Below, one piece after another: positions 3,808 through 18,606 of a stretch of 50,633 nucleotides of DNA (its first letter is position 1; each line of letters starts with the position of its first letter). This DNA comes from a phage. Location: sequence record NC_102605.1. The stretch is one strand, 5' to 3'. The notes beneath the pieces were generated by a model, which worked only from the letters and a program-made list of their open reading frames with translations, did no database searches and was not told where the DNA came from. The position numbers and the translations under genes are program-made.

Positions 3808-4029
3808 ATGAAACTGAAAACTGAATCCATCATGAACATTGTCAAAGCTCACGGGAAAGTAGTTTTGAAAATGGATCGCGCTTCTGGATTCCATCAGTTA
3901 ACGATTACCCGCGTAAAAACTGGTTACGCTGTTGGCGAACATCCAGGCGGTAGAATCCGCCGAATAACTGAAAGTGATGCTTACGCGATGATTGACGAAA
4001 TGAGCATGTTTATTGAGAAGTGGGGTTGA
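3808..4029 (+). CDS. Hypothetical protein (73 aa)
   Basis: ORF track 3766..4029; ATG after GGAGAA RBS. Confidence 0.5.
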   Translation: MKLKTESIMNIVKAHGKVVLKMDRASGFHQLTITRVKTGYAVGEHPGGRIRRITESDAYAMIDEMSMFIEKWG

Positions 4030-4030
4030 T

Positions 4031-4255
4031 ATGGTTCAAGATGCTTTCTTTGCTCGCCTACATGAAGCGGAGGCGGCTGGACTTAACAAAGAATGGGCGC
4101 TTAAAGTTGCCTATCTTGAAATAACGCTTGATGACGCATTAGGCGCTATGGATATGGATCAAGAAAGTAGCGTGATGCTTGCTGATCCTAACGCAATAAT
4201 CAATGATTGCGGTTGTAACTTCGATCCATCTTGCAAGCGTTGTTTCCCATTCTAA
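4031..4255 (+). CDS. Hypothetical protein with Cys-rich C-terminus (74 aa)
   Basis: ORF track 4013..4255; internal ATG after GTGGGG. Confidence 0.45.
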   Translation: MVQDAFFARLHEAEAAGLNKEWALKVAYLEITLDDALGAMDMDQESSVMLADPNAIINDCGCNFDPSCKRCFPF

Positions 4256-4267
4256 GGAGTATTTAAA

Positions 4268-4345
4268 ATGACACCTATCGAAAAAATTTGCTGCCCAAAA
4301 CACGGCGGAAGCGGGGATAAAACAACATGCCCATTCTGTAAGTAA
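4268..4345 (+). CDS. Cys-rich micropeptide (25 aa, CC-x7-C-x2-C), not in ORF track
   Basis: Perfect TAAGGAG RBS 8 nt upstream of ATG. Confidence 0.3.
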   Translation: MTPIEKICCPKHGGSGDKTTCPFCK

Positions 4346-4454
4346 AAAAATAGCGGCCTGTTTAGCGTCGTGTCGCGATTTCAGGCCGTAGCCAATACAG
4401 TTGCGACACCTACAAACAAAACGCCTTACAAGGTCATACAGAAAGGATTTAAAC

Positions 4455-5150
4455 ATGCTTATTTTCTCACTATTTGATGGTTCTGGTTATGCTGCGTTGC
4501 CGTGGGCTGAACGTGGTCACAAAGTGCTGTGCTTTAATTTCGACGGTGCTGATCATGGTGATTACCAATCAGTGCGCGTGACTCATCCCAACATCGTTTA
4601 TTTGAATGAGTGGATCGGATTATCATTCCAGCATAACGCAATGATGCGCGTCTTTGGCACTCCAGATTTTATTATTGCATTCCCTCCATGCACTGATTTA
4701 GCTGTTAGCGGATCGCGTCACTTTGCCGCAAAGCGTGAACGTGATCCAGACTTCCAGAAAAAGGCGGTTGAAACGGCAAAGATTGCTGCCAATATTGCGG
4801 ATCGGTTTAACGTTCCATACATGATTGAGAATCCTGTTAGTGTTCTGTCGTCAATGTGGCGGCAACCTGATTTTATCTTTCATCCTTGCGCGTTTGGAGG
4901 TCTGTTGCCGGAAGATGATAAACATCCTCACTTTCCTGAAATCATTCCCGCTCGCGATGCGTACACCAAAAAAACTTGTCTTTGGACGGGTAACGGCTTT
5001 GTAATGCCGGATACAAACGCAGTATTGCCAACAGGGAACAACAATCCAGGCTGGCAAAAGCTCGGCGGCAAGTCTAAGCGAACAAAGCTGATCCGCTCAC
5101 TCACTCCGCGCGGCTTTGCGCTTGCTGTATGCATGGCAAATCAGAAATAG
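4455..5150 (+). CDS. DNA cytosine-5 methyltransferase-like protein, short, no obvious target-recognition domain (231 aa)
   Basis: Motif I-like FDGSG, PC motif FPPCTDLAVSG and ENV-like IENPV in canonical order; ATG after AAAGGA. Confidence 0.4.
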   Translation: MLIFSLFDGSGYAALPWAERGHKVLCFNFDGADHGDYQSVRVTHPNIVYLNEWIGLSFQHNAMMRVFGTPDFIIAFPPCTDLAVSGSRHFAAKRERDPDFQKKAVETAKIAANIADRFNVPYMIENPVSVLSSMWRQPDFIFHPCAFGGLLPEDDKHPHFPEIIPARDAYTKKTCLWTGNGFVMPDTNAVLPTGNNNPGWQKLGGKSKRTKLIRSLTPRGFALAVCMANQK

Positions 5151-5165
5151 CACTTTTTGTTAAAA
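5145..5165 (+). promoter_or_regulatory. Dyad-motif cassette
   Basis: Motif contains the methyltransferase stop; hairpin gccggat/atccggc; cataat. Confidence 0.6.
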
Positions 5166-5222
5166 CGCCGGATCACGTATCCGGCATAATGATTTCAACG
5201 AAAACAAAAGGAGATAAATCAA

Positions 5223-5585
5223 ATGGCTAAATTCAAATCAATCAAACTTATCGGATCTGATAACCGCCTATACAAAGCGCGGGTAGACGAAAATGATGAT
5301 ACTTTCGTTAAGTTAGATGGGAAATGGATTCACGCCAACTTAACCGGATTAACATTCCGAAATGTTAAGACCAAAACCATTAAATGCACATGGGTAAACC
5401 ACTCCATGCAGATCAAGAAAACTTTCAAAGCCGATAAGCGTTATCAGATAGAACAAGGCCGCGTGTTAGGTGCTGTTGCTGGATACGTGTTCGACGAAAA
5501 CGGCGACCGTTTCACGCTGTATCGGGAAGAAGTTGGATTCTCTGCCGCTGGCGGTGCTTATCTGTTTGAGGCCAAATACTCATGA
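5223..5585 (+). CDS. Hypothetical protein (120 aa)
   Basis: ORF track; AAGGAGA RBS. Confidence 0.6.
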   Translation: MAKFKSIKLIGSDNRLYKARVDENDDTFVKLDGKWIHANLTGLTFRNVKTKTIKCTWVNHSMQIKKTFKADKRYQIEQGRVLGAVAGYVFDENGDRFTLYREEVGFSAAGGAYLFEAKYS

Positions 5586-5830
5586 GTTTACCGGAAAAAG
5601 ATTACATTCCTCACCGTTCTGAGGCCATGCAAAAATACCGTTACAAGGTTGTTTTCAGTGCGATATCCTCATTAAAGGAAGGTGAAACGGTCTATCGCAT
5701 CAGGGATAAGCATTCATATTTGCTGATTGGTCACACGTTCCATCGTTCGCTTGAATTCGATACTAAAACTCTTGAATGTCATAGCATTATAGACGGAAAG
5801 TTATTAGCCAGGGTTGAGCCGATCAAATAG
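5582..5830 (+). CDS. Hypothetical protein (82 aa)
   Basis: ORF track; ATGA overlap; stop TAG inside the next motif. Confidence 0.5.
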   Translation: MSLPEKDYIPHRSEAMQKYRYKVVFSAISSLKEGETVYRIRDKHSYLLIGHTFHRSLEFDTKTLECHSIIDGKLLARVEPIK

Positions 5831-5845
5831 CACGAATTGCTAAAA
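5825..5845 (+). promoter_or_regulatory. Dyad-motif cassette (palindromic variant)
   Basis: aaatagcacgaattgctaaaa; hairpin gttgccg/cggcaac with tataat in the loop. Confidence 0.6.
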
Positions 5846-5897
5846 GGCTGTAGAATGTTGCCGTTATAATTAGCGGCAACAAGAAGGAGATTTTTAG

Positions 5898-7478
5898 ATG
5901 TTTGACTTTGACACCAACAAATTGACACCTCAACAAGTTATAGCCATTGCAGAATCGCAGGGAACATCGCCGCTTCGCGTTGCTATTCAGTCGAACGGCT
6001 ACCGCCAATCGTCCAGCTTTTGGGAGCCTGTGAAGGATATCAACGGCGCTAATGACCGTTATCCTGTGATCTCTTTGGGTAATGATGTTGATGTTGTGGG
6101 TAAACTGTCACGTAGCATTGCTCAATCTGTTCAATTTCCTGAATCATCGGCCTATATGCATTTCATTGGTTGCGTTTCCGCCGCTATGGTTGGACGCTTC
6201 CAGGTTGAGTACCACGGCACTGAACAACCAACGGCGCTTTATGTTGTAACCAGTCAGCCGCCATCAACTGGTAAATCAGCAATCAACAGCCTGGCTATTG
6301 CGCCAATGGTCTGTGAAGTTGAGCGCATCAACGAACAACGCAAGAAAGAGCGAAAGAAGATCGCAGCGAAATTAAAAGGCGTTGAAAAGGAATTGAAAGC
6401 TGAACGTTCCGGCACTGAGTTAGCGGCGTTGTTTGAGGAAAAGGAGGAATTAGAGGAAAAGTTAGAAAAAATGTGCGATATCGTTTTTCCGGTATCAGAC
6501 ACCACGCCGGAAGGGTTAGCAAAGATCAACAATCGCCAGGGTAACTTTGCTGTTATTTCCGATGAAGCAACAAGCATCAACAGCTTACTCGGATTGACTT
6601 ACGCTAATAGTGATCGCAAGACTAACAGCGAATTGGTTCTAAAAGCATGGGACGCAGGACACGTTTCAATAGCTCGCGCCAATTCTGAAAACAATATGAG
6701 TTTTGTTGCGTTGGGCTGCATGAGCGTAATTGCCCAGGATGAAACGATAAAAGGGATCATGGATGCAGGGGCGCGGGGTATCGGTGTTAGTGAACGTTTC
6801 TTGCTTGTGCGTGAAAAAACAATGTTAGGCGAGCGTGTATTTATTGATGAAAATGGTGATCTTGATTACACGCCAGTTGATAAAGAATTAAAGGCGCAAT
6901 ATTTCCAGTTGATTCATAACATCATGACTGAACAAAATGTTGTATTGAAGCCGTCACGTTCTGCAATGCGTGTTCTTAATATTGCTCGCCAGCAATTAGA
7001 GCCAGATTTAGCAGACGGCGGAAAATATTCACATACAATGTTGCGTGGTGCTTTGGGTAAAATGGATAAACAAGTGATTCGTATTGCGTCAGTATTGCAC
7101 ACGATCCGCAATTGGTTTAATCCAAACGGTACGCCGCAAAAGTCGCGAGAAATTGAAGTTGAGACAATGCAAGAGGCTTTGGTGATGTTCAGCGAATTAA
7201 GCAAAACATATATTAACGCCGCGAATGCTTCCGGTCACGCTGGCGATGATGCCGAAATGAGCAAGTTAATTGAAATCATCATTAAGATCTCACGTCAAAA
7301 TAAAGGCGTTACCAATGCAAGAGCGATATATGAAAGTGCGCGTAAGGTTAAGCCGTTTACAGGTCAATCAGGCGTTATGAAACGAATTGAGGAACAATTA
7401 TTGCCAATGCTTGAAGAAAAGAATTATGTTTGCAGCGTTGGTAAATTTGTTTATGTCAATCCTGCGTTAATGGGGTAA
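5898..7478 (+). CDS. P-loop NTPase-like protein of unknown function, possibly DUF3987/replication-associated (526 aa)
   Basis: Walker A-like PPSTGKS, Walker B-like VISDE, charged coiled-coil KKERKK...EELEEKLEK; AAGGAGA RBS. Confidence 0.45.
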   Translation: MFDFDTNKLTPQQVIAIAESQGTSPLRVAIQSNGYRQSSSFWEPVKDINGANDRYPVISLGNDVDVVGKLSRSIAQSVQFPESSAYMHFIGCVSAAMVGRFQVEYHGTEQPTALYVVTSQPPSTGKSAINSLAIAPMVCEVERINEQRKKERKKIAAKLKGVEKELKAERSGTELAALFEEKEELEEKLEKMCDIVFPVSDTTPEGLAKINNRQGNFAVISDEATSINSLLGLTYANSDRKTNSELVLKAWDAGHVSIARANSENNMSFVALGCMSVIAQDETIKGIMDAGARGIGVSERFLLVREKTMLGERVFIDENGDLDYTPVDKELKAQYFQLIHNIMTEQNVVLKPSRSAMRVLNIARQQLEPDLADGGKYSHTMLRGALGKMDKQVIRIASVLHTIRNWFNPNGTPQKSREIEVETMQEALVMFSELSKTYINAANASGHAGDDAEMSKLIEIIIKISRQNKGVTNARAIYESARKVKPFTGQSGVMKRIEEQLLPMLEEKNYVCSVGKFVYVNPALMG

Positions 7479-7480
7479 TC

Positions 7481-7873
7481 ATGTTCTTATTAGATCTGTA
7501 TCGCTTTTGTGAGTCTCGCGAGAAATTCAACCGCCAGGAATTAGCAAGATTTATATTCCGCAACCGTGAATGTGAAAGGCTTGCAAAAAATGCGGGGGTA
7601 ACTCCCCGCTATTTCGCATCAAGTGTGAGTAAAGAGTTTATTTCTCGCCTTATGGGTTTTGGATATTTGGACGGCGTACACTGCGAATATTGGTGTAAAA
7701 ACAAGATGAAAAGACCGTTTAATTTCGAACTATATAGCCTGGAAGGTGATAAAAATCGTTATGTTTTGGAAATTATGAATATAGAGAAAATGAGCGATGA
7801 AGAATTATTCAGCAAGCCAGCATTTGATAGATCTTATTTTGAAAGAAAGTTCAGCAATGCAAATTCCGCATGA
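7481..7873 (+). CDS. Hypothetical protein (130 aa)
   Basis: ORF track. Confidence 0.5.
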   Translation: MFLLDLYRFCESREKFNRQELARFIFRNRECERLAKNAGVTPRYFASSVSKEFISRLMGFGYLDGVHCEYWCKNKMKRPFNFELYSLEGDKNRYVLEIMNIEKMSDEELFSKPAFDRSYFERKFSNANSA

Positions 7874-7994
7874 TGATTTTGTCTATGCGTTAATGCTGTT
7901 GCTTTATAGCGATATGCGAGCGTTTGTGGATCAAGAGCATCAACTGACAAATCATGATGGTGAATTGCTAATTCATGTTAGAAAATTTGAGTAA
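7857..7994 (+). CDS. Hypothetical small protein (~45 aa)
   Basis: Internal ATG of ORF 7797..7994; overlaps the end of the previous gene. Confidence 0.3.
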   Translation: MQIPHDDFVYALMLLLYSDMRAFVDQEHQLTNHDGELLIHVRKFE

Positions 7995-8025
7995 AAGAAA
8001 AGGCGGCTTATGCCGCCTTATTACG
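7995..8025. terminator. Bidirectional rho-independent terminator between converging plus and minus blocks
   Basis: aaggcggc-tta-tgccgcctt hairpin with A/T tracts on both sides. Confidence 0.7.
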
Positions 8026-8397
8026 TTTTAGTGTCCAACCTGCCAGCATACCAGCAATAAACATTAATATACCCATTGCGATTGCCTGAACGTTAAGACC
8101 GTCATTGTTGCGAATTTCTATTCTTTCCGCCGTGATGTTATCGGCCTTAATGCTTGAGGTGCTCACCTGCTTTTTATTTGACGTGTCAACTTGACCAACT
8201 GCCGATTCTTTGAATGTTGTTTCCTGCTTGCTTGATGTATCCTGCTTTGCGGTCACACCAACAGTCTGTTTCACATTCTCCGCTCCAGCCTGTGCCGTTA
8301 TATCAGGCTTGCTACCAATCAGACCAGGTAACACGCTTGAAGCTGAACAACCAGAAAGAGCAATGCACATCATAATAGCCAGTAATTTTCTTTTCAT
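8008..8397 (-). CDS. Unimolecular spanin (lipoprotein signal plus C-terminal TMD)
   Basis: Lipobox LSGC at the N-terminus, C-terminal hydrophobic helix, last gene of the lysis cassette. Confidence 0.65.
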   Translation of the reverse strand: MKRKLLAIMMCIALSGCSASSVLPGLIGSKPDITAQAGAENVKQTVGVTAKQDTSSKQETTFKESAVGQVDTSNKKQVSTSSIKADNITAERIEIRNNDGLNVQAIAMGILMFIAGMLAGWTLKRNKAA

Positions 8398-8897
8398 TTA
8401 TTCAGATCCATTACACAATATTTATATTCAACAGAGCGGCGATTCTTCAATCCCTTTGATTTTTCCTTTTTTCCCGTTTTCGGGTTCCGGTAATATGTCC
8501 AGTTCCAAAGCTCGCCACAACCACCATACAGATCACCATTGTTGATCTTCTTCAACATGGTTGATTTCCTGAATGCACCTGTTCCGGCGTTGAATGTGAA
8601 TGAGTACAAAGCCGCTCGCATAGAAATAGGAATATCAACCTTAACCGCTTTATCAACAGCGTCAGCCGCAACTTTCATATGCTTTGCAAGTAGCGCGTCA
8701 CATTCTCGCCTGGTATATTCCTTTCCTAATATCACATCCTTTCCTGTGATTCCGTGGCATACCGTCCAGATTCCTGCAATATCCTTGTAAGGTTTATACC
8801 TCACGCCCTCAATTTCTTCAATCAAGGGCGATGCCATCATTAAAGCCGCGCCCGTTATGGTAGCGGCTATTGTCTTTTTAATAGCCATTAAATTCAC
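8394..8897 (-). CDS. Endolysin, GH24 lysozyme-like with N-terminal SAR domain
   Basis: N-terminal weakly hydrophobic Gly/Ala-rich segment, then EG...Y.D...G..T lysozyme core. Confidence 0.7.
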   Translation of the reverse strand: MNLMAIKKTIAATITGAALMMASPLIEEIEGVRYKPYKDIAGIWTVCHGITGKDVILGKEYTRRECDALLAKHMKVAADAVDKAVKVDIPISMRAALYSFTFNAGTGAFRKSTMLKKINNGDLYGGCGELWNWTYYRNPKTGKKEKSKGLKNRRSVEYKYCVMDLNK

Positions 8898-8900
8898 TCC

Positions 8901-9116
8901 CTATTTTTGGTTAATTTTAAGAGCGGTTTTAAGATCTCCACACTCTAACGCCTCTCGGATCGCCTTGCTGTCACGCCACCTTAGCCACAAGCCAACAGCG
9001 CCGAAAATAACAAAGAATATGAATGTTAGAACCGCCAACATTAATTGACCAGTTGCAGCGCCAGAGAATGAAGCACCACCACTTGAATAAGTTGCAAAGT
9101 TAATAAATTCACGCAT
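8901..9116 (-). CDS. Holin (probable pinholin, 71 aa)
   Basis: Small protein with hydrophobic TMDs and charged C-terminus, directly upstream of the SAR endolysin. Confidence 0.6.
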   Translation of the reverse strand: MREFINFATYSSGGASFSGAATGQLMLAVLTFIFFVIFGAVGLWLRWRDSKAIREALECGDLKTALKINQK

Positions 9117-9228
9117 AACTAGATCCCTTAAAAATTAAAAAGTCAATATCAAAAAACAGTCTGATTATGTTAACGACAAAAACAAAAAAAGGCCAGCATT
9201 TAGCCAGCCTTTTTATGTGATAATTTAA

Positions 9229-10344
9229 TTATGCAATCATTTCAGGGTAGAACATGAAGCGCCCTATCTCGCCATATTCCTTATCATAGATAATTACCGC
9301 CGCTCTACGGCGTGAACGCCAACCGCCACGCGCCGCATAAGCATCTTTAGCCGCCATAGTGCTATGAACCTCAACAATGCCCAGGCTCGTTTCTGTGACT
9401 GTCTGATGATGCCAATGCCCCACATGCGCATACATTGAATTGGAGTTTCCGAAATCTTCCCGCCAATCCGCTGCACACATCATTAAAAGCGTTTCTGGCT
9501 TGCGTACAGTGTGACCATGATGATAAGCAAGGAACGTTTTTCCATATTGCGTGTGATGCACTACACGCGGAGAAACATCAACATTAACGCGTGGTTCATC
9601 TTCATACGCCGCCGCCATTGCAGCACGTAGCCAGATCATTCCTGATTGGTCGTGATTACCCTCAATGATCTGGATCTCAACTTCTTTATGCTTTTCAAGC
9701 ATACGGCTTACTGCTCTACGCGTGGCACGAATGGCAACATAAACCAGTTTTGCATAACGTGAATCCTGATCCAATACGTGACCGCTTGCAGGTGTGACGG
9801 CTTCTAATCCGTCGCTGTGAATCATATCACCACCAATCAGCAATACGGCCTTTTCGCTATTCGGCGCTTTATCAACTGCATAATCGAAAAACTCATTCAT
9901 TACGTTTTCCGCTGTTGCCGTGTCGTAATTCTCACCGCTTTCATGCTTATGAGCCATTGCGCCAATATGGATATCAAAGATCGGATATAACGCCAGCGTT
10001 TGCGAGTAATCAGTAATTTTTTCCGGTTGCGGCTTGATGCGCGGCACTTCTTCCGAAAATGCAGCCATAGCCGCTTGCATGATTGCCTCTAATTGCTCTT
10101 TGTCTTTGTGCGTCTTAATCCAGGTTAGTTTAGTGTTACCATTCTTATCAACTAACTTTGACTCGCCAATTACAGCAAAGCCAGGCGATCCGATTGTTGA
10201 TATTTCCCCACGTTTAGCCAATTTGCTGTGACGGTGCTCAACCTGTCGCAAGCTCATTCCGTACTTTTCCGCAATCTCACGCAGTTTTAAACCTGCTGCC
10301 CTTTCTGCAATAAGTTGTTCGTCCGTAATTTTTGCCGCACTCAT
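9229..10344 (-). CDS. HTH-domain protein fused to calcineurin-like metallophosphoesterase (371 aa)
   Basis: N-terminal HTH-like region; phosphoesterase motifs DIHIG, GGDMIHSD, GNHD, HHGH, GHWHH. Confidence 0.7.
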   Translation of the reverse strand: MSAAKITDEQLIAERAAGLKLREIAEKYGMSLRQVEHRHSKLAKRGEISTIGSPGFAVIGESKLVDKNGNTKLTWIKTHKDKEQLEAIMQAAMAAFSEEVPRIKPQPEKITDYSQTLALYPIFDIHIGAMAHKHESGENYDTATAENVMNEFFDYAVDKAPNSEKAVLLIGGDMIHSDGLEAVTPASGHVLDQDSRYAKLVYVAIRATRRAVSRMLEKHKEVEIQIIEGNHDQSGMIWLRAAMAAAYEDEPRVNVDVSPRVVHHTQYGKTFLAYHHGHTVRKPETLLMMCAADWREDFGNSNSMYAHVGHWHHQTVTETSLGIVEVHSTMAAKDAYAARGGWRSRRRAAVIIYDKEYGEIGRFMFYPEMIA

Positions 10345-10680: not shown

Positions 10681-10825
10681 GACCGTAAGCCTTTTTAAGT
10701 AATTCCATAGCATCATTCCAAAGAATTTGCGCAATAACTTTTGTGTTTTTACGCTCAAGCATAAACAAAGATTCTCTTGCTAACCATTGAGCATCTTTGA
10801 AATATTCAACATTAACAATTTTCAT
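10661..10825 (-). CDS. Hypothetical small protein (~54 aa), not in ORF track
   Basis: ATG after GAGGA RBS and conserved leader tcaacgaaacgaaacgagga, downstream of a cassette. Confidence 0.4.
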   Translation of the reverse strand: MKIVNVEYFKDAQWLARESLFMLERKNTKVIAQILWNDAMELLKKAYGHESNEG

Positions 10826-10883
10826 TTTACAAATCCTCGTTTCGTTTCGTTGAAATGATTATGCCCCACATAAGCGGGGCCTT

Positions 10884-10904
10884 TTTAACAAAAAGTGCTA
10901 TTTA
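10884..10904 (-). promoter_or_regulatory. Dyad-motif cassette (minus orientation)
   Basis: Reverse complement aaatagcactttttgttaaaa; hairpin gcccc/ggggc; cataat; motif TAG is the stop of the upstream gene. Confidence 0.6.
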
Positions 10905-11164
10905 TTAGGATCTGCTAAAAATTCTTTTAGATCTTGATTTATCTTTTCTTCCCACTTGCTCAATACAAGCTCTTTTGTTTCATCAAAACTCATATCAAGC
11001 GCATCTGTGAACATCCACAAATCAGATCCTACTGTTTCAGTTTCATTCGCCTTTTCTATCGCATCGCACACCATAGCGCGATAAAGCAACCATAAACAAC
11101 GTTCAGTTAATTCAACGCGTCGATATTCAACGCCATTTTCAACAATAGTTTCAATCTTTTCCAT
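10898..11164 (-). CDS. Hypothetical acidic protein (88 aa)
   Basis: ORF track; tightly follows the Dam gene. Confidence 0.55.
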   Translation of the reverse strand: MEKIETIVENGVEYRRVELTERCLWLLYRAMVCDAIEKANETETVGSDLWMFTDALDMSFDETKELVLSKWEEKINQDLKEFLADPNK

Positions 11165-11166
11165 CT

Positions 11167-11904
11167 TTAAATACTCCGCGCTTTTGTGCGTTTGTTCTTA
11201 ACAGAAGGGCAAATTTCACTAATTGGCACATAATGAGTTTGTTGTTGCTCACCTTCTTTCAGTTGGCGCATGATAAAAATCACGCTTCCTTTATTGTTTC
11301 CACTAACTTGCTCACCTGTCATGCCAGAAATAAACGACACTCGACCAGTGCGGGAATATTGTTTTCCTTCTTCTTCCCATGTTTCGCCAGTGATCCAGAT
11401 AATTTCCGCCGCGTGTTTTTGTGCATCGCTAAACCATGCGGTTGAGTTGTCAGCCGGAAGTAAAATATCAATCTGGTTTCCGTGTTCCATCTGCTCAATT
11501 GCTTTTAACACAAACGGATCTGGATTGCTGTATGGCGGATTAAGCCAAACATGCTTATTGCTACCCCACCAACGCTTTAAACAGTTTGTTTCTTTGCTGT
11601 AAAACTTATCGCATTTTTTATTATCTTCCGTTGCGGCTGCATCAAGATCATATTTGCCGTAACGTTCGGCAAGATAATCAACAATTTCATCTGGCGTTTC
11701 CCACAAATCGCGCACAACGTCCGGCGTTTTACTTCCTGCATAACGGTTGCCGCTAACCTTCAAAAACGTGTTTTCTCTAACTGGCTGATAATGACCACCT
11801 GAACGCAGCGCAATATCTGAATATCTTCCGTATTGCAGTTCATGAAAATCCATTTCCGGCTCAAAAGTATCAATGGTTGCTTTGTCCTGAAAATCCTTAG
11901 CCAT
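11167..11904 (-). CDS. dam: DNA N6-adenine methyltransferase (phage Dam family)
   Basis: Catalytic NPPY motif (WLNPPYS); size and context typical of phage Dam. Confidence 0.8.
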   Translation of the reverse strand: MAKDFQDKATIDTFEPEMDFHELQYGRYSDIALRSGGHYQPVRENTFLKVSGNRYAGSKTPDVVRDLWETPDEIVDYLAERYGKYDLDAAATEDNKKCDKFYSKETNCLKRWWGSNKHVWLNPPYSNPDPFVLKAIEQMEHGNQIDILLPADNSTAWFSDAQKHAAEIIWITGETWEEEGKQYSRTGRVSFISGMTGEQVSGNNKGSVIFIMRQLKEGEQQQTHYVPISEICPSVKNKRTKARSI

Positions 11905-11905
11905 T

Positions 11906-12184
11906 TTATTTTACCTCGCAAGTTAGAGTGTGCTGATAAACGCCAACTTTAATATCAATGGTGTTATCGTTAACAGTGTAATAAGCCGTCCCAATTGGCG
12001 TAAACAGCTTATATTGATTTTTGCTGATATTATCCATTACAACGCCTGTGCTCGGACCGCTTACAACTTTCATATAGTCGCTTGCAACCTCAAACGCTTC
12101 ATTTCCGCAAATATATGTTTTTGGTTTATCCATGCAACCGACAAGGGCAAGTGATAAAGCAACTACTGATAACATCTTTTTCAT
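11906..12184 (-). CDS. Small outer-membrane lipoprotein, Cor-like superinfection-exclusion candidate (92 aa)
   Basis: Signal peptide with lipobox LVGC after an RBS-supported internal ATG (track 11906..12328); own cassette upstream. Confidence 0.45.
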   Translation of the reverse strand: MKKMLSVVALSLALVGCMDKPKTYICGNEAFEVASDYMKVVSGPSTGVVMDNISKNQYKLFTPIGTAYYTVNDNTIDIKVGVYQHTLTCEVK

Positions 12185-12240
12185 GGTTAATTCTCCGTTT
12201 CGTTCTGATGGGTGCATTATGGCGCATTCCGTTGCGCCTG

Positions 12241-12665: not shown

Positions 12666-14639
12666 TTAAAACTCCTTCTGCGCAATCAAATCTTCTTTCT
12701 TTGTGTTTTTGCGATGGGTAACACGTTTCGGCGGCAATATTTGCCCCGCATAACTCATGATCTTAATTGCATTGCGGCAAGTGATCATGAAGTTTGCAGC
12801 CTGGCGATCTATAACGTGTGTTCTAACCGCCTTTGTCCAAAGCGTTTTGCATATCTTGTGTTCTGATTCAGGGAAATATTTTTCGTATGCCCTGAATTCT
12901 ACGCCGCCACTATCACGCAACGTGTAGCAGAATATTACGCCAGCCTGGTTTTTTGTCAGTGTTACATTAAAATCTAACACGTCACACCAATCATTTTTAC
13001 GGTACATCTTGCCGGATAAGTTATCATTTGGATCTCGCAACTGAACATTACAGCAACGGCATACACGCGCCGCAACGTCATTTTTTGCGCCGCAACCTTT
13101 TACAATAACTTTCTTTGTGCGGTCATCAATCTGATCCTCACATTCCTGGAACGTCCAGAAATGTTCACAACGATTTCCGTTTTCATCCTCATTAATGCAA
13201 CGGCGAGCATAGAATGAATTTTCTGTGCCGCAAATCGGGCAATATTTCGGATCTTTATCCTGTGATTTACGCAACTGGAATTGCGCTTGCTCTAACATCG
13301 GATCGAAATACAAATTACCCATTTCAAACATCGTGCCGGAAAAATCCAAAACAAGGTGATCCGTTTTGTGCATTCCCAATACTTCTTTATGGTAAGTTTT
13401 TAATTGACGCATACCGCGCCCCAAAAGCTGAGTTAATAGCGTCAGGCTTCCGATCTTACGCAAAATAACAGAAGTATCCCACGGCGGAACGTTCACTCCA
13501 GTTGTTAGCGCTTGAACCTGGAATATGTATTTCACGCGCCCTTCATAGGCATCCTCAAGCCATAAGCGCCGCTGTTTCTCTCCAGTTTTTCCGGTGATAA
13601 TGTGATATTTCGTGCCAGGAGGAAGCGCCGCCGCCGCCTCTTTACAATGCCTTTCGTCAGCGCAAGTAACAAGAGCGCACAAGCGGTTTTTCATCACCTC
13701 ATGAACCATCTGCATTATTTTCTGCGTCATGGTTCCTGATTGGTGAATCTTGTCACTCATGGCCTTTAATTGCTTCTGGTCATAATCAGCAACGCCAAAT
13801 TCATGCACTGGCGTAAATTCTGATAAGTCGTAACCCAAATCACCAACATTGCCAAAATAAGTTGGAACAACTGAGCCAAATTTTACCAGGTAATCAGTAT
13901 CAATGTTTGTGATCTGCTCACGCCAAAATCCAGGAATTCTTTTATCTTCGACAAGTATCGGCTCAATCCCGCGATATTCCGATCCGGTCATTCCAAATAT
14001 GCGCAACTGATGCCCGTAAGTCTCAAGGCAACGGCGGCGCATTTCTGCAATGATAATGGTGTATTGTGCGCGGCCTGAACCAATCAGCAACGGATGCCCT
14101 TCAACTGGTTCACCTTTCGGTGTCATCATTTGCTCTATGCTTTCGCCGTTTTCCTCGGCTTCAACAATATCATTCCAGTTGACTTGATGACATTCGTCTA
14201 TACCTAAAACTTGTGGGACGTAATCACCCAACGCTTTATTCAATCCACCAATTACAGTGCCTTCCGATCCGACAACAATCGGGAAATAAGCGCTTTTGGT
14301 ATTCAGGCCAGCGCAATAAACGGAATTCGGAACACCAAAGGCGCTAATCTCTTTTGAATCCTGATCCACAATTTCAGATTGACGCGCCAGAAATAACGCT
14401 TTCAACCCCATTTTACGGCACTGAGCCGCAACCATAGCAAAGATGATTGTTTTACCTGCCGATACCGCCGCTTTAACGAAAAACGGATCAACATACTTGC
14501 TCAAGCGCTTTGCAATTTCAGCGTAAGCAACGCATTGGTATTCATACGGGACAATCTCACCAACCGTGAAACGCTTCTGTATTGCTCTGATCTTTTCCTC
14601 TCCAAGATCTGCAATCTGCTTTTCAATGTTAGGAATCAT
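12666..14639 (-). CDS. DExH-box superfamily-2 DNA helicase with C-terminal Cys-rich zinc-finger region
   Basis: Walker A VSAGKT, DECH box (GIDECHQV), helicase C motifs, C-terminal CxxC clusters. Confidence 0.75.
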   Translation of the reverse strand: MIPNIEKQIADLGEEKIRAIQKRFTVGEIVPYEYQCVAYAEIAKRLSKYVDPFFVKAAVSAGKTIIFAMVAAQCRKMGLKALFLARQSEIVDQDSKEISAFGVPNSVYCAGLNTKSAYFPIVVGSEGTVIGGLNKALGDYVPQVLGIDECHQVNWNDIVEAEENGESIEQMMTPKGEPVEGHPLLIGSGRAQYTIIIAEMRRRCLETYGHQLRIFGMTGSEYRGIEPILVEDKRIPGFWREQITNIDTDYLVKFGSVVPTYFGNVGDLGYDLSEFTPVHEFGVADYDQKQLKAMSDKIHQSGTMTQKIMQMVHEVMKNRLCALVTCADERHCKEAAAALPPGTKYHIITGKTGEKQRRLWLEDAYEGRVKYIFQVQALTTGVNVPPWDTSVILRKIGSLTLLTQLLGRGMRQLKTYHKEVLGMHKTDHLVLDFSGTMFEMGNLYFDPMLEQAQFQLRKSQDKDPKYCPICGTENSFYARRCINEDENGNRCEHFWTFQECEDQIDDRTKKVIVKGCGAKNDVAARVCRCCNVQLRDPNDNLSGKMYRKNDWCDVLDFNVTLTKNQAGVIFCYTLRDSGGVEFRAYEKYFPESEHKICKTLWTKAVRTHVIDRQAANFMITCRNAIKIMSYAGQILPPKRVTHRKNTKKEDLIAQKEF

Positions 14640-15394: not shown

Positions 15395-16321
15395 ATGCAT
15401 TATCAAAAAGAAGAAGTTATCCCAAAGATGCGCGGCATGTGGCAAGCGGCATTGATGAAACTTTGCGATATTCCTCAATTAACATTTAACGGAAAGCATC
15501 AGCCTTGCCCTTATTGCGGCGGTAAAGATCGCTTTCGTTGGACTGACAAAATCAACGAGAAAGGCGACGGCGGAAACATTTGCAACCAATGTGGTAATGA
15601 TTCAGGGATCGGATTGTTCATGCGCATACGTGGTGAAAATTACAGTGAAGCAATCGACACGCTAGGCGAATGGTTAAACCTGGTTCCGGTTGAGGTTGTC
15701 AACAAGGCTAACAAAGCGGCAAAACGTGATTCCGGTTACAACTTCGGATCGCAAGCGCCTCATGAGAAATGTGTTGAGGTTATGGATAAAACTGAACGCA
15801 TGGAAATAACAAACCTAAGCGTTTTTGAGGCGTTTTATCCATTAGACGGCGAATCGTATCAAGTTGGCGTAAAAACTCATGACAATGGATATTGCGAGCA
15901 TATACACGCTATTCCTTGCCACCTGGTGCATAGTGATGAATTGGATGATGACATGTGCAATATTCTTTTCGTCAATGAGGAAGGTAAAAGCAGTTTTTAC
16001 GCGAAAGATTACACGCGCGGAAGCGTTGCGGTAACTGGCAAGACTGACAAAACAATTTACCTTTGCGTTGATTGGATTGATGCGCAACATATACACCTGG
16101 CGACGGGGCAAGAAGTATGGGCGTGTTTTTCACCTTCAAATCTTGAAATTGTTGCATACAGATACAAAGGAGATCGCAAAATGCGCGTTGTGTGCCATGC
16201 TAATGAACGCGATACTTTGATTGCTGCTGATGATCGAGAATTAGACGTAATGTTACCAGTTAACGGTAAATTCAAAAATGGAATAGAGCGGAGGCTTTAC
16301 AAGGCAAGTGACTTATTATAA
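15395..16321 (+). CDS. DNA primase-like protein (zinc-ribbon plus TOPRIM-like region)
   Basis: CPYCGGKDRFRW...CNQCG zinc ribbon as in primase-helicase Zn-binding domains; GGAGG RBS. Confidence 0.55.
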   Translation: MHYQKEEVIPKMRGMWQAALMKLCDIPQLTFNGKHQPCPYCGGKDRFRWTDKINEKGDGGNICNQCGNDSGIGLFMRIRGENYSEAIDTLGEWLNLVPVEVVNKANKAAKRDSGYNFGSQAPHEKCVEVMDKTERMEITNLSVFEAFYPLDGESYQVGVKTHDNGYCEHIHAIPCHLVHSDELDDDMCNILFVNEEGKSSFYAKDYTRGSVAVTGKTDKTIYLCVDWIDAQHIHLATGQEVWACFSPSNLEIVAYRYKGDRKMRVVCHANERDTLIAADDRELDVMLPVNGKFKNGIERRLYKASDLL

Positions 16322-16476: not shown

Positions 16477-18606
16477 ATGGCTTTATATCGCACTGGTACG
16501 GCTGCAATGGACGCGCAAGGCGTTATCACTGGTACTGGCACAAAATGGCGTGAGCCTCTTTCTCTTATCCGCACTGGCGCAACAATCGTATTTCTCACAT
16601 CGCCTCTTAAATTGGCTGTGATTAGCGATATTGTAAGCGACACGGAAATGAAAGCGATCCAGACTGACGGCGAGCCAGTAGAAAACGGAAATTATGTGAT
16701 CCTGTTGAATGACTCTTTAACGGTAGATGGAATGGCGCAAGATGTTGCGGAAACTCTGCGCTATTACCAAAGTAAAGAAACTGTTATTGAGGAAGCGATT
16801 GAATTTTTCAAAAACTTTGATTTAAAAACATTACAGGATCTTGTTGCTCGCGCTGAGGCTTCCGCTCAAAAAACTGATGCAGACCGAGCCGCGACAGAAC
16901 AATTAAAAAGCGACACGCAAACAATTAAGGATTCCGCCGTTTCTGAAACTCAACAGATTAAAAATGCCGCTGTTTCTGAAACCAATCAGATTAAGGCCGA
17001 CACGGACGCAATAAAAAACCAAACGCAACAGATTAAAGATTCTGCCGTTACTGAGATAACCGGAATTAAAAATGAAGCGTTAGACGCGCGTGATGAAGCG
17101 GAAAAAGCACAATTTGCCGCTGAACAATCAAAAGTTGGTGCTGATAATGCAAAGGCTGGCGCTGAGACTGCGCGTGATGAAGCTCGCCAATGGGCGCAAC
17201 AGGTACAGCCTGAAAATCTGCTGCATAAGGATCAAAACCTTAATGATCTCGCAAACAAAGACCTTGCAAGGGAGGCGCTAAAAGTTGAGGCTGTTAATTC
17301 TGTAAAAGATCAATATGCTGGCGCTTATAATTCTTTTCGTAATCCTGCATGGACTTATGAACTAAGGATCGCGAATAACGGCGAGTGGCGAGTTGCAAGA
17401 AATAGCGATGGATCAACGTCTGTTCTTTCTGTTGGTGCTGGCGGCACTGGTGCGGAAAACGTTACGCAAGCAAAATTAAACTTGCAGATTGATAGATTTG
17501 TGCAAGGTTCAACTTCAACAACGATGAAGATTGGCGACTACACGTTTAGTCTTGGTGATAATGGCGAGTGGGGCGTTGTAAAGAGTGGCGTTAGTGGTTG
17601 GATCGCGCTTGGTGTTGCGCAAGGTGGTACAGGTGCAACAAGCACAGGTCAAGCAAGGCGTAATCTCGGTATTAGTGAATCTGATATACCAATTTTTGGC
17701 GGAGTTGCTCTTGATGCCTTTAATAGCTACACATCTGGAATATTTTACCTAAGAAACAAGAACACTAGCGGCGCTCAAGTTTCGTACTCTCGCGTTTATA
17801 ACGAGATTAAAGGAGGTTTTGCAAAAACAACAATTCATACAACCAGAGAGGGTGGAGGTGCTAACTATTTTCAGATTGATGAAACTGGGCTTGTTAATAA
17901 TGTTAGGGCGATAATATGTTCTCCGTCAAATGTTGGTGGCGATGGATTTACCGTTGGCGTTGTTCCTGGTGGAGGATTTGCAGACTGGAGAGATCGACCT
18001 GCTGGAATGATTGTTGAGCACCCAAGCGATGATGTTGCGGTTAACGTCTTGAAATCTGTCCGTTGGGGCGGAGATTGGGTTATGGGGATTGACGCTGCAA
18101 GGTATGGCGGTGGAGTTTGCGAGGTTCATCTAAATGTAAGGGGAACTACATACACATTTAATGATAATGGTTATGCTTCTGCTGGTCAGTGGGTTAACAC
18201 TTCGGATATTCGACTGAAAGCAAATCTAAAAGAGATTAAAAGCGCTAAAGAAAAAGTGAAATCAATAAAAGGTTACACTTATTTCAAGAGAAATAATCTT
18301 GATGAAGATGAACACTCTTTCTACTCTGAGGAAGCTGGTGTAATAGCTCAAGACGTGCAAAGTGTTTTGCCGGAAGCGGTTTACAATATTTCAGATTCTG
18401 AATATTTAGGTGTTAGCTATGGTGGTGTTACTGCTCTTTTGGTTAACGCAGTAAATGAAATGATCGATGATTCTGATAAGCAAAATGAACTAATTGCAAA
18501 GCAACAGGAGGAAATTAACACATTACGCAACGAGTTAGACGAACTGAAAAACCTTGTAAAATCAATGCTTAGCGGAAATGCTTCAACAATTCCAGAACTA
18601 ACATAA
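16477..18606 (+). CDS. Tail fibre with C-terminal intramolecular chaperone (peptidase S74-like) domain
   Basis: Repeated beta-rich Gly/Thr segments; C-terminal SDIRLK auto-cleavage-type motif followed by coiled coil; GAGGTG RBS. Confidence 0.7.
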   Translation: MALYRTGTAAMDAQGVITGTGTKWREPLSLIRTGATIVFLTSPLKLAVISDIVSDTEMKAIQTDGEPVENGNYVILLNDSLTVDGMAQDVAETLRYYQSKETVIEEAIEFFKNFDLKTLQDLVARAEASAQKTDADRAATEQLKSDTQTIKDSAVSETQQIKNAAVSETNQIKADTDAIKNQTQQIKDSAVTEITGIKNEALDARDEAEKAQFAAEQSKVGADNAKAGAETARDEARQWAQQVQPENLLHKDQNLNDLANKDLAREALKVEAVNSVKDQYAGAYNSFRNPAWTYELRIANNGEWRVARNSDGSTSVLSVGAGGTGAENVTQAKLNLQIDRFVQGSTSTTMKIGDYTFSLGDNGEWGVVKSGVSGWIALGVAQGGTGATSTGQARRNLGISESDIPIFGGVALDAFNSYTSGIFYLRNKNTSGAQVSYSRVYNEIKGGFAKTTIHTTREGGGANYFQIDETGLVNNVRAIICSPSNVGGDGFTVGVVPGGGFADWRDRPAGMIVEHPSDDVAVNVLKSVRWGGDWVMGIDAARYGGGVCEVHLNVRGTTYTFNDNGYASAGQWVNTSDIRLKANLKEIKSAKEKVKSIKGYTYFKRNNLDEDEHSFYSEEAGVIAQDVQSVLPEAVYNISDSEYLGVSYGGVTALLVNAVNEMIDDSDKQNELIAKQQEEINTLRNELDELKNLVKSMLSGNASTIPELT

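What the first reader, a model, noticed from the sequence alone, without database searches (positions are those of the whole stretch)
5898..7478. Large early P-loop protein of unknown function
At 526 aa this is the largest gene in the early array, with Walker A-like PPSTGKS, Walker B-like VISDE and a highly charged coiled-coil segment, but no helicase motifs I could recognise. It is separate from the dedicated helicase and primase genes. It could be a DUF3987-type replication-associated ATPase or an accessory host-takeover or anti-defence ATPase.
Basis: inference. Interest (0 to 1): 0.5.

Follow-up and report, generated by a model that had tools for sequence, protein, structure and literature searches.

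The report
MCM-like DUF3987 helicase of T1-like phage
The 526-residue "unknown P-loop protein" is the DUF3987-family, MCM-like AAA+ ATPase that all T1-like phages carry; it is most likely the phage's ring-shaped replication helicase, a family already predicted and partly proven elsewhere, so the finding is real but ordinary.

Summary
The window is a Tlsvirus (T1-like Drexlerviridae), 99.8% identical to Salmonella phages GJL01 and YSP2. The protein is 100% identical to database proteins already labelled "DNA helicase".

- **Family:** it matches Pfam DUF3987 (E 6e-43) and PHROG 2373 "DNA helicase" (E 4e-253).
- **Context:** relatives are fused to DnaG-type, DnaB-N or prim-pol domains. In distant phages the gene lies beside the orthologous primase, the SF2 helicase and exonuclease VIII.
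- **Literature:** DUF3987 proteins were predicted to be SF6 replicative helicases in 2016. One member was shown to be a 5'->3' helicase in 2025. The 2024 TLS re-annotation lists the ortholog (gp71) as DUF3987 with similarity to CMG/MCM.

"Unknown function" is overstated, and nothing supports an anti-defence role. The role in T1-like replication has not been tested by experiment. Novelty: already known. Interest is low.

The parts
5898..7478 (+). Gene for the DUF3987-family AAA+ (MCM-clade, SF6) ATPase, the predicted replicative helicase; ortholog of T1 ST9 and TLS gp71
5882..5887 (+). Shine-Dalgarno sequence AAGGAG, 8 nt upstream of the ATG
   Evidence: Sequence read
5898..6188 (+). N-terminal helical region (aa 1-97); the first ~60 aa are variable and are replaced by a DnaB N-terminal domain or primase domains in relatives
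   Evidence: DSSP of the model; domain fusions and the alignment ranges of relatives
6240..6278 (+). Strand beta1 plus Walker A / P-loop (aa 115-127, LYVVTSQPPSTGKS); K126 is invariant
   Evidence: Alignments A1 and A2; model
6273..6470 (+). Highly charged helical hairpin insertion (aa 126-191) between Walker A and strand beta2; a feature of the whole family
   Evidence: the A2 profile gives coiled-coil-like matches over this stretch
6546..6566 (+). Strand beta3 plus Walker B (aa 217-223, FAVISDE); S221 and E223 are invariant, D222 is Ala in a minority
6660..6743 (+). Predicted pre-sensor-1 beta-hairpin (aa 255-270, invariant R260), then strand beta4 and candidate sensor 1 (VIAQDE, invariant Q280)
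   Evidence: DSSP strands 255-258, 267-270 and 273-279; invariant residues
6783..6812 (+). GVSERF motif at the start of strand beta5 (aa 296-305); invariant R300 is the candidate trans arginine finger, like the MCM 'SRF' motif
   Evidence: the MCM motif comparison rests on established knowledge of MCM, not on a tool result
6882..7232 (+). Helical lid domain (aa 329-445) with candidate sensor 2 (LRGxxGK, R383/G384/K388)
7245..7475 (+). C-terminal winged-helix domain (aa ~450-526)
15395..16321 (+). Separately encoded Zn-ribbon (T7 gp4 / P4 alpha type) DNA primase, the predicted partner
   Evidence: Pfam Zn_Ribbon_Prim E 1.4e-13 and PHROG 510; its ortholog is adjacent to the DUF3987 gene in phages DS8 and pYD38-A
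12666..14639 (-).

Best explanation
The gene encodes the T1-like phage member of the DUF3987 family. This is an AAA+ ATPase of the MCM clade (helicase superfamily 6). It most likely assembles into a ring, probably a hexamer. ATP would be bound by Walker A (K126) and Walker B (E223) of one subunit and by the arginine finger (R300) of its neighbour. Hydrolysis would drive translocation along single-stranded DNA, contacted by the pre-sensor-1 hairpin (R260), and so unwind the phage replication fork. These phages encode no DNA polymerase. The helicase would therefore work with the separately encoded Zn-ribbon primase and the phage SSB, and recruit host DNA polymerase III. The C-terminal winged helix may add origin or partner binding, so the protein could also act as the initiator. 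What is shown: family membership, the fold, conservation of the catalytic residues, linkage to primases and purifying selection. What is inferred: ring assembly, helicase activity in this protein, polarity, the partners and essentiality.
For: - Family: Pfam DUF3987 at 147.9 bits against a cutoff of 27; full-length PHROG 2373 'DNA helicase'.
- Catalytic residues: K126, S221, E223, R260, Q280, R300 and K388 are invariant down to about 22-28% identity.
- Fusions: relatives are fused to a DnaG Zn-ribbon, a DnaB N-terminal domain or an NrS-1 prim-pol domain. BFVD relatives are named as or fused to primase, prim-pol or Toprim proteins.
- Gene neighbourhood: in phages pYD38-A, DS8 and K160 the DUF3987 gene lies in one module with the orthologous primase, the SF2 helicase and exonuclease VIII.
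- No polymerase gene is annotated in the 99.7%-identical phage YSP2; the TLS paper says the same for T1 and TLS.
- Selection: 21 synonymous against 1 nonsynonymous difference versus phage Punny.
- Literature: DUF3987 predicted to be replicative SF6 helicases with a C-terminal wHTH, and N4 dns, essential for replication, is a member (PMC4889955; N4 gp43 checked). PriCT-DUF3987 AgaPH unwinds DNA 5'->3' in a Walker A/B-dependent way (PMC11724360). TLS gp71 is listed as DUF3987 with HHpred similarity to 6RAW, a CMG structure.
Against: - No experiment on any T1-like ortholog was found.
- In the window the gene is about 8 kb from the primase, with the lysis cassette between them, not adjacent as is usual for the family.
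- The phage also has an SF2 helicase, which the TLS paper treats as 'the' replication helicase.
- Sequence profiles alone do not reach MCM in the PDB. The link rests on the predicted structure and on published HHsearch/HHpred results.
- Polarity is uncertain: MCM moves 3'->5', while AgaPH was reported as 5'->3'.
- From my memory of Bourque & Christensen 1980, which I could not check here, T1 DNA synthesis needs host elongation genes. If those include dnaB, the phage protein may not be the fork helicase.
- No iterons or other origin-like repeats lie near the gene.
Confidence: 0.75

Rival explanations
1. It is an origin-recognising initiator or helicase loader rather than the fork helicase. The AAA+ ring and the C-terminal winged helix would melt the phage origin or load host DnaB, and host DnaB would then drive the fork. 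The closest analogies are ORC/Cdc6-type AAA+ initiators.
Confidence: 0.15
2. It is an accessory DNA-repair, recombination or fork-restart motor that is dispensable for bulk replication. Either the SF2 helicase or host DnaB would be the main replicative helicase.
For: The genome carries a second helicase (SF2) next to the primase, plus Erf, exonuclease VIII, SSB and a VRR-NUC-like resolvase. The gene sits apart from the primase in T1-like genomes.
Against: SF2 ResIII/Helicase_C enzymes are not known replicative fork helicases (established knowledge). The DUF3987 gene is co-conserved with the primase across distant phage genera and is fused to primases elsewhere. It is under strong purifying selection.
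Confidence: 0.07
3. It is an anti-defence or host-takeover ATPase.
For: It lies in a block of small, mostly unknown genes of the kind that often holds takeover functions. No experiment excludes this reading.
Against: No similarity to any defence-related model (a weak test, because PADLOC models defence systems, not anti-defence proteins). The fold, the motifs, the primase fusions and the conserved position in replication modules all point to replication.
Confidence: 0.03

Closest known systems
T1 ST9 and TLS gp71, and the identical proteins of phages LL5, PCST1 and GJL01 (orthologs in Drexlerviridae)
   Same: The same gene. Identity is 100% to database proteins and about 59% to the Tunavirus relatives listed (Shfl1, DELF2). 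The position is the same, upstream of a ~130-aa ORF and the lysis cassette. TLS gp71 is 526 aa and is listed as DUF3987 with HHpred similarity to 6RAW.
   Different: Nothing of substance. Labels vary between records: DNA helicase, putative helicase, putative ATPase, DUF3987, YfiJ, hypothetical protein, and the clearly wrong 'NADPH-flavin oxidoreductase'.
AgaPH, the PriCT-DUF3987 helicase of a Seonamhaeicola mobile element (PMC11724360)
   Same: DUF3987 ATPase core with Walker A and B motifs and a small C-terminal domain. It is oligomeric, partners with a primase, and is the only member with demonstrated helicase activity.
   Different: AgaPH has an N-terminal PriCT domain and partners with an AEP prim-pol encoded next to it. 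The phage protein has a short helical N-terminus, and its presumed partner is a Zn-ribbon, DnaG/P4-alpha-type primase 8 kb away. I did not obtain the AgaPH sequence, so identity was not measured.
Phage N4 gp43 (dns), essential for N4 replication
   Same: A DUF3987-type ATPase module spanning the whole Pfam profile (24.2 bits, just under the cutoff of 27) plus a primase-related PriCT_1 domain. Assigned to the family in PMC4889955.
   Different: Very distant: hhalign of A1 against the single N4 sequence gives only 8.8% probability. According to PMC4889955, N4 gp43 carries an AEP primase domain C-terminal to the helicase module. N4 also has its own DNA polymerase.
Archaeal and eukaryotic MCM helicases (SF6)
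   Different: Identity is only 11-17%. There is no Pfam MCM match and no PDB sequence match. There is no OB-fold or zinc N-terminal domain. No helix-2 insert is evident in the model. A long charged helical hairpin follows Walker A, which is specific to DUF3987. The polarity may be opposite (AgaPH is 5'->3').
Cch (SCCmec) and SaPI Rep / primase-helicases (DUF927-type, MCM-like helicases of mobile elements)
   Different: A different Pfam family and a lower structural score than MCM. Their origin iterons are known, whereas none were found here.

Membership tests
DUF3987 (Pfam PF13148) | Match to the family HMM above the curated gathering score | tested here: met
   147.9 bits against a cutoff of 27, E 5.9e-43, profile positions 3-352 of 364
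DUF3987 (Pfam PF13148) | Conserved Walker A (GxxxxGK[ST]-like) and Walker B (DExx) motifs | tested here: met
   QPPSTGKS at aa 120-127 and SDE at aa 221-223. K126, S221 and E223 are invariant in A1 and A2. D222 is Ala in 6 of 29 sequences of A1.
DUF3987 (Pfam PF13148) | [quoted passage not shown] | tested here: met
DUF3987 (Pfam PF13148) | Association with a DnaG or AEP primase, either fused or encoded immediately upstream | tested here: inconclusive
   Met for relatives: fusions and adjacency in DS8, pYD38-A and K160. In this window the primase is about 8 kb away, across the lysis cassette.
DUF3987 (Pfam PF13148) | ATP-dependent DNA unwinding, shown for AgaPH only | not testable with these tools
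   Needs biochemistry
MCM family proper (Pfam PF00493; SF6) | Sequence match to the MCM profile or to solved MCM chains | tested here: not met
   No MCM hit in Pfam at E<=1. No MCM among PDB sequence hits with the single sequence or with profiles A1 and A2.
MCM family proper (Pfam PF00493; SF6) | AAA+ core and lid that superpose best on MCM | tested here: met
MCM family proper (Pfam PF00493; SF6) | N-terminal OB-fold / zinc-binding DNA-binding domain | tested here: not met
MCM-clade AAA+ (pre-sensor-1 hairpin superclade) | Beta-hairpin inserted before sensor 1 | tested here: met
   Strands 255-258 and 267-270 lie directly before beta4 (273-279), with invariant R260. This is read from the secondary structure of a predicted model only.
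MCM-clade AAA+ (pre-sensor-1 hairpin superclade) | Helix-2 insert (beta-hairpin within alpha2) | tested here: not met
   Helix 204-214 is uninterrupted in the DSSP string. Model coordinates could not be inspected, so this is a weak negative.
MCM-clade AAA+ (pre-sensor-1 hairpin superclade) | Trans-acting arginine finger in an SRF-like motif at the start of beta5 | tested here: met
   The motif GVSERF is at aa 296-301 and R300 is invariant in A1 and A2. That it acts in trans is inferred.
DnaB/SF4 (RecA-fold) replicative helicases | DnaB_C / RecA-type ATPase domain | tested here: not met
   No DnaB_C hit in Pfam. The structural neighbours are AAA+, not RecA-fold.
SF2 helicases (DEAD / ResIII) | Two RecA-like domains with SF2 motifs I-VI | tested here: not met
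   No such Pfam hit for this protein. Those hits belong to the other helicase at 12666..14639.

The most novel reading that the evidence does not exclude
T1-like phages may run their replication fork with a bacterial-virus MCM relative. It would load itself at a still unknown origin through its winged helix, translocate 5'->3' (opposite to MCM), and use its charged helical arm or variable N-terminus to dock the stand-alone primase and capture host Pol III. That would be a minimal 'AAA+ helicase + primase + hijacked polymerase' replisome unlike the DnaB-based ones of lambda, T7 or T4. It could also identify the classical T1 DNA-negative gene 1 or gene 2.
Probability: 0.3. Interest if true: 0.45.

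Novelty: already known. Interest (0 to 1): 0.15.

Why it matters
For genome annotation, this gene should be called [quoted passage not shown]. Labels such as "hypothetical protein" or the clearly wrong "NADPH-flavin oxidoreductase" seen in some records should go.

Biologically, T1-like phages are common laboratory contaminants and candidates for phage therapy, and they encode no DNA polymerase. Knowing which of their two helicases drives the fork, and how host Pol III is recruited, remains an open experimental question, though an unsurprising one. Nothing here changes current understanding.

Tried and rejected
- **Direct sequence searches of the PDB** with the protein and with two family profiles gave only chance or coiled-coil hits. 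The MCM link could not be shown by sequence with these tools.
- **NCBIfam and PADLOC** gave nothing.
- **hhalign of the family profile against N4 gp43 and against KFS-SE2 gp47** was weak or inconclusive. A single-sequence target has little power.
- **Origin-like iterons or structured repeats at 4000-9500:** only short, low-identity, two- or three-copy matches that look like chance.
- **Conserved partner in the small flanking ORFs:** the 130-aa downstream and 82-aa upstream ORFs show no detectable similarity to the ORFs at the same positions in phage DS8.
- **Literature on defence-escape mutations in this gene:** two papers that mention Drexlerviridae and helicases turned out to be unrelated.
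- **Literature on T1 genes 1 and 2 and on host dna-gene requirements:** not in the searchable library. My recollections are marked as unverified.
- **The supplement of PMC4889955,** which might list T1 explicitly, is not held.
- **The fragmented copy in phage HCF1** looked like a record or assembly problem and was not pursued.

Full report
**1.

An ATG-initiated ORF runs from 5898 to 7478 on the + strand and encodes 526 aa. An AAGGAG Shine-Dalgarno sequence lies 8 nt upstream. PPSTGKS is at residues 121-127 and VISDE at 219-223. Residues 148-187 are 57.5% charged, against 24% for the whole protein. It is the largest ORF of the + strand block that ends at a bidirectional terminator at 8000-8019.

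**2. Where the window comes from**

The region is 99.7-99.8% identical to Salmonella phages GJL01 and YSP2 (Drexlerviridae, Tempevirinae, Tlsvirus), and about 94% identical to Citrobacter phage Stevie and its relatives. The protein is 100% identical to proteins of phages PCST1 and LL5.

tblastn finds the protein in 919 phage records, 900 of them near full length. Their labels range over "DNA helicase", "putative helicase", "DUF3987", "YfiJ", "hypothetical protein" and an evidently wrong "NADPH-flavin oxidoreductase". The T1 ortholog is ST9. The TLS ortholog is gp71, which the 2024 re-annotation lists as [quoted passage not shown], a CMG/MCM structure.

Against phage Punny the gene differs at 22 nucleotides, of which 21 are synonymous. 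It is clearly a functional gene under constraint.

**3. What the protein is**

- **Family.** Pfam gives DUF3987 (PF13148) at 147.9 bits (cutoff 27) over residues 81-432. PHROG 2373, "DNA helicase", matches end to end with E 4e-253. PHROG 7327 matches residues 440-525 alone. NCBIfam, PADLOC and direct PDB sequence searches give nothing.
- **Model.** An AlphaFold2 model built on a 29-sequence alignment is confident (pLDDT 87.8, pTM 0.87).

Reading the secondary structure against the canonical AAA+ order gives this layout:

| Element | Residues | Conserved residue |
|---|---|---|
| beta1 and Walker A | 115-127 | K126 |
| Charged helical hairpin insertion | 126-191 | none noted |
| alpha2 | 204-214 | none noted |
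| beta3 and Walker B | 217-223 | S221, E223 |
| Beta-hairpin before beta4 (pre-sensor-1 position) | 255-270 | R260 |
| beta4 and candidate sensor 1 | 273-280 | Q280 |
| GVSERF at the start of beta5, like the MCM 'SRF' arginine finger | 296-305 | R300 |
| Helical lid with LRGxxGK, candidate sensor 2 | 329-445 | R383, G384, K388 |
| C-terminal winged helix | 450-520 | none noted |

**4. Evidence that it belongs to replication**

- **Family size.** A profile search of 1.84 billion cluster representatives finds 6,198 relatives at E<=1e-3.
- **Fusions.** Many relatives are 750-970 aa with the DUF3987 module at the C-terminus. Among ten that were examined, one carries a DnaG-type CHC2 zinc ribbon, one a DnaB N-terminal domain and one an NrS-1 prim-pol helix-bundle domain. 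BFVD structural neighbours include proteins named primase, prim-pol, Toprim or replicative helicase.
- **Gene neighbourhood.** Three distant phages carry a DUF3987 gene: Vibrio phage pYD38-A, Shigella phage DS8 and Vibrio phage K160 (Pfam 121.9, 120.5 and 71.7 bits). The first two are 34-36% identical to the window protein. In all three the gene lies in one compact module with a Zn-ribbon primase, an SF2 helicase and exonuclease VIII. For DS8 the primase (33% identity) and the SF2 helicase (42%) were shown to be orthologs of the window's genes.
- **Arrangement in T1-like genomes.** The same three genes are present, but the lysis cassette, an exonuclease and a Dam methylase lie between them.
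- **The other two enzymes.** The primase matches only the N-terminal half of a primase-helicase profile (PHROG 510, positions 11-340 of 667), so it brings no helicase of its own. The 657-aa helicase is an SF2 ResIII/Helicase_C enzyme.
- **No polymerase.** No DNA polymerase is annotated in the near-identical YSP2 genome. The TLS paper states the same for T1 and TLS.

**5. What the literature already says**

- Kazlauskas et al. 2016 (PMC4889955) classed phage DUF3987 proteins as divergent SF6 helicases related to MCM. They noted the C-terminal wHTH and the association with DnaG or AEP primases, named N4 dns (essential for replication) as a member, and concluded that these proteins act as replicative helicases. 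I confirmed that N4 gp43 carries a full-length but sub-threshold DUF3987 match plus a PriCT_1 domain.
- Kazlauskas et al. 2018 (PMC5862659) made the same prediction for primase-fused DUF3987 domains of mobile elements.
- A 2025 study (PMC11724360) purified a PriCT-DUF3987 protein, AgaPH. It is oligomeric, binds its cognate prim-pol, and unwinds 5'-overhang and forked DNA in a Walker A/B-dependent way with 5'->3' polarity.
- A Drexlerviridae genome paper already calls the ortholog a "putative helicase containing a DUF3987 domain" (PMC8004638).

**6. Most likely mechanism**

The protein most likely forms a ring-shaped, probably hexameric, AAA+ motor. ATP sites would be built between subunits, from Walker A and B of one and R300 of the next. 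The motor would translocate on ssDNA through the hairpin that carries R260 and unwind the phage fork. It would cooperate with the stand-alone Zn-ribbon primase and the phage SSB while host Pol III synthesises DNA. The winged helix may give it an initiator role.

The fold, the motifs, the genomic linkage and selection are shown. Oligomerisation, activity, polarity, partners and essentiality are inferred. I put about 0.75 on "replication helicase".

The main rivals are:
- initiator or loader for host DnaB (0.15);
- accessory repair or restart motor (0.07);
- anti-defence or takeover ATPase (0.03).

Caveats: no experiment exists on a T1-like ortholog. The gene is not adjacent to the primase in this genome. 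Sequence-only searches do not reach MCM. My unverified recollection is that T1 depends on host elongation genes.

**7. Membership**

It is a clear member of DUF3987. It is not a member of the MCM family proper: there is no MCM profile match, no OB/zinc N-terminal domain and no evident helix-2 insert. It does belong to the same AAA+ structural clade and plausibly works like an MCM or Cch-type helicase. It is not a DnaB/SF4, SF3 or SF2 helicase.

**8. Verdict**

The feature is already known as a kind and as this very protein. Interest is low (0.15).

The most novel reading still open is a self-loading, 5'->3' MCM-like helicase that organises a minimal replisome around hijacked host Pol III. I give that a probability of about 0.3, and it would be of moderate interest if shown.

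Noticed in passing
window 7481..7873 (+): A 130-aa ORF starts 3 nt after the helicase stop codon, so it is probably translationally coupled. It matches PHROG 2794 (unknown function) and has no Pfam hit. It is conserved in T1 (ST10), TLS (gp70) and Punny (gp45). It shows no detectable similarity to the small ORF at the same position in phage DS8. It could be a lineage-specific helicase partner.
   Followed up: partly
window 6561..6563 (codon 222, Walker B Asp): The Walker B aspartate D222 is replaced by alanine (xxSAE) in 6 of the 29 aligned relatives, while S221 and E223 are invariant. That is unusual for an AAA+ Walker B motif and is unexplained.
   Followed up: no
window 7215..7475 (aa 440-526), and Klebsiella phage KL NC_049838.1 6221-6508: The C-terminal winged-helix region matches a separate PHROG (7327) on its own. 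In Klebsiella phage KL only this part (aa 430-525, 42.7% identity) is found, in an unannotated stretch. The domain may exist as a stand-alone gene or as a remnant.
   Followed up: no
window 8000..8019: A perfect 8-bp GC-rich hairpin (AAGGCGGC-TTAT-GCCGCCTT) is scored as a terminator on both strands. It sits between the convergent + strand block and the - strand lysis cassette (spanin, endolysin, holin).
   Followed up: no
L005 (Salmonella virus KFS-SE2, NC_054641.1) 10753-12240: This Skatevirus has orthologs of the primase and the SF2 helicase. At the position expected for the DUF3987 gene there is a 494-aa protein labelled 'DNA primase' that has no Pfam hit. hhalign against the DUF3987 profile was inconclusive. 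It may be a very divergent helicase or a replacement.
   Followed up: partly
L008 (phage T1) 46085-46624; phage CF1 DK-2017 and HCF1 records: HNH endonuclease genes lie directly upstream of, or interrupt the match around, the DUF3987 gene in T1 (ST8) and CF1. In several records (HCF1, 2019SD1, Vc1, STSR3) the gene appears split or truncated. Homing-endonuclease activity or assembly errors are both possible.
   Followed up: partly
window 16477..18606 (+): The tail-fibre ORF is 709 aa here but 802 aa in the otherwise 99.7%-identical phage YSP2 (L001 15711-18119). The receptor-binding gene therefore differs between these near-identical phages.
   Followed up: no
window 4401..5150 (+): A Dcm-like C5-cytosine methyltransferase gene lies just upstream in the same block. 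The longest ORF starts at a TTG, whereas relatives annotate a shorter 231-aa product. A second methyltransferase (Dam-like) is at 11167..11904 (-).
   Followed up: no
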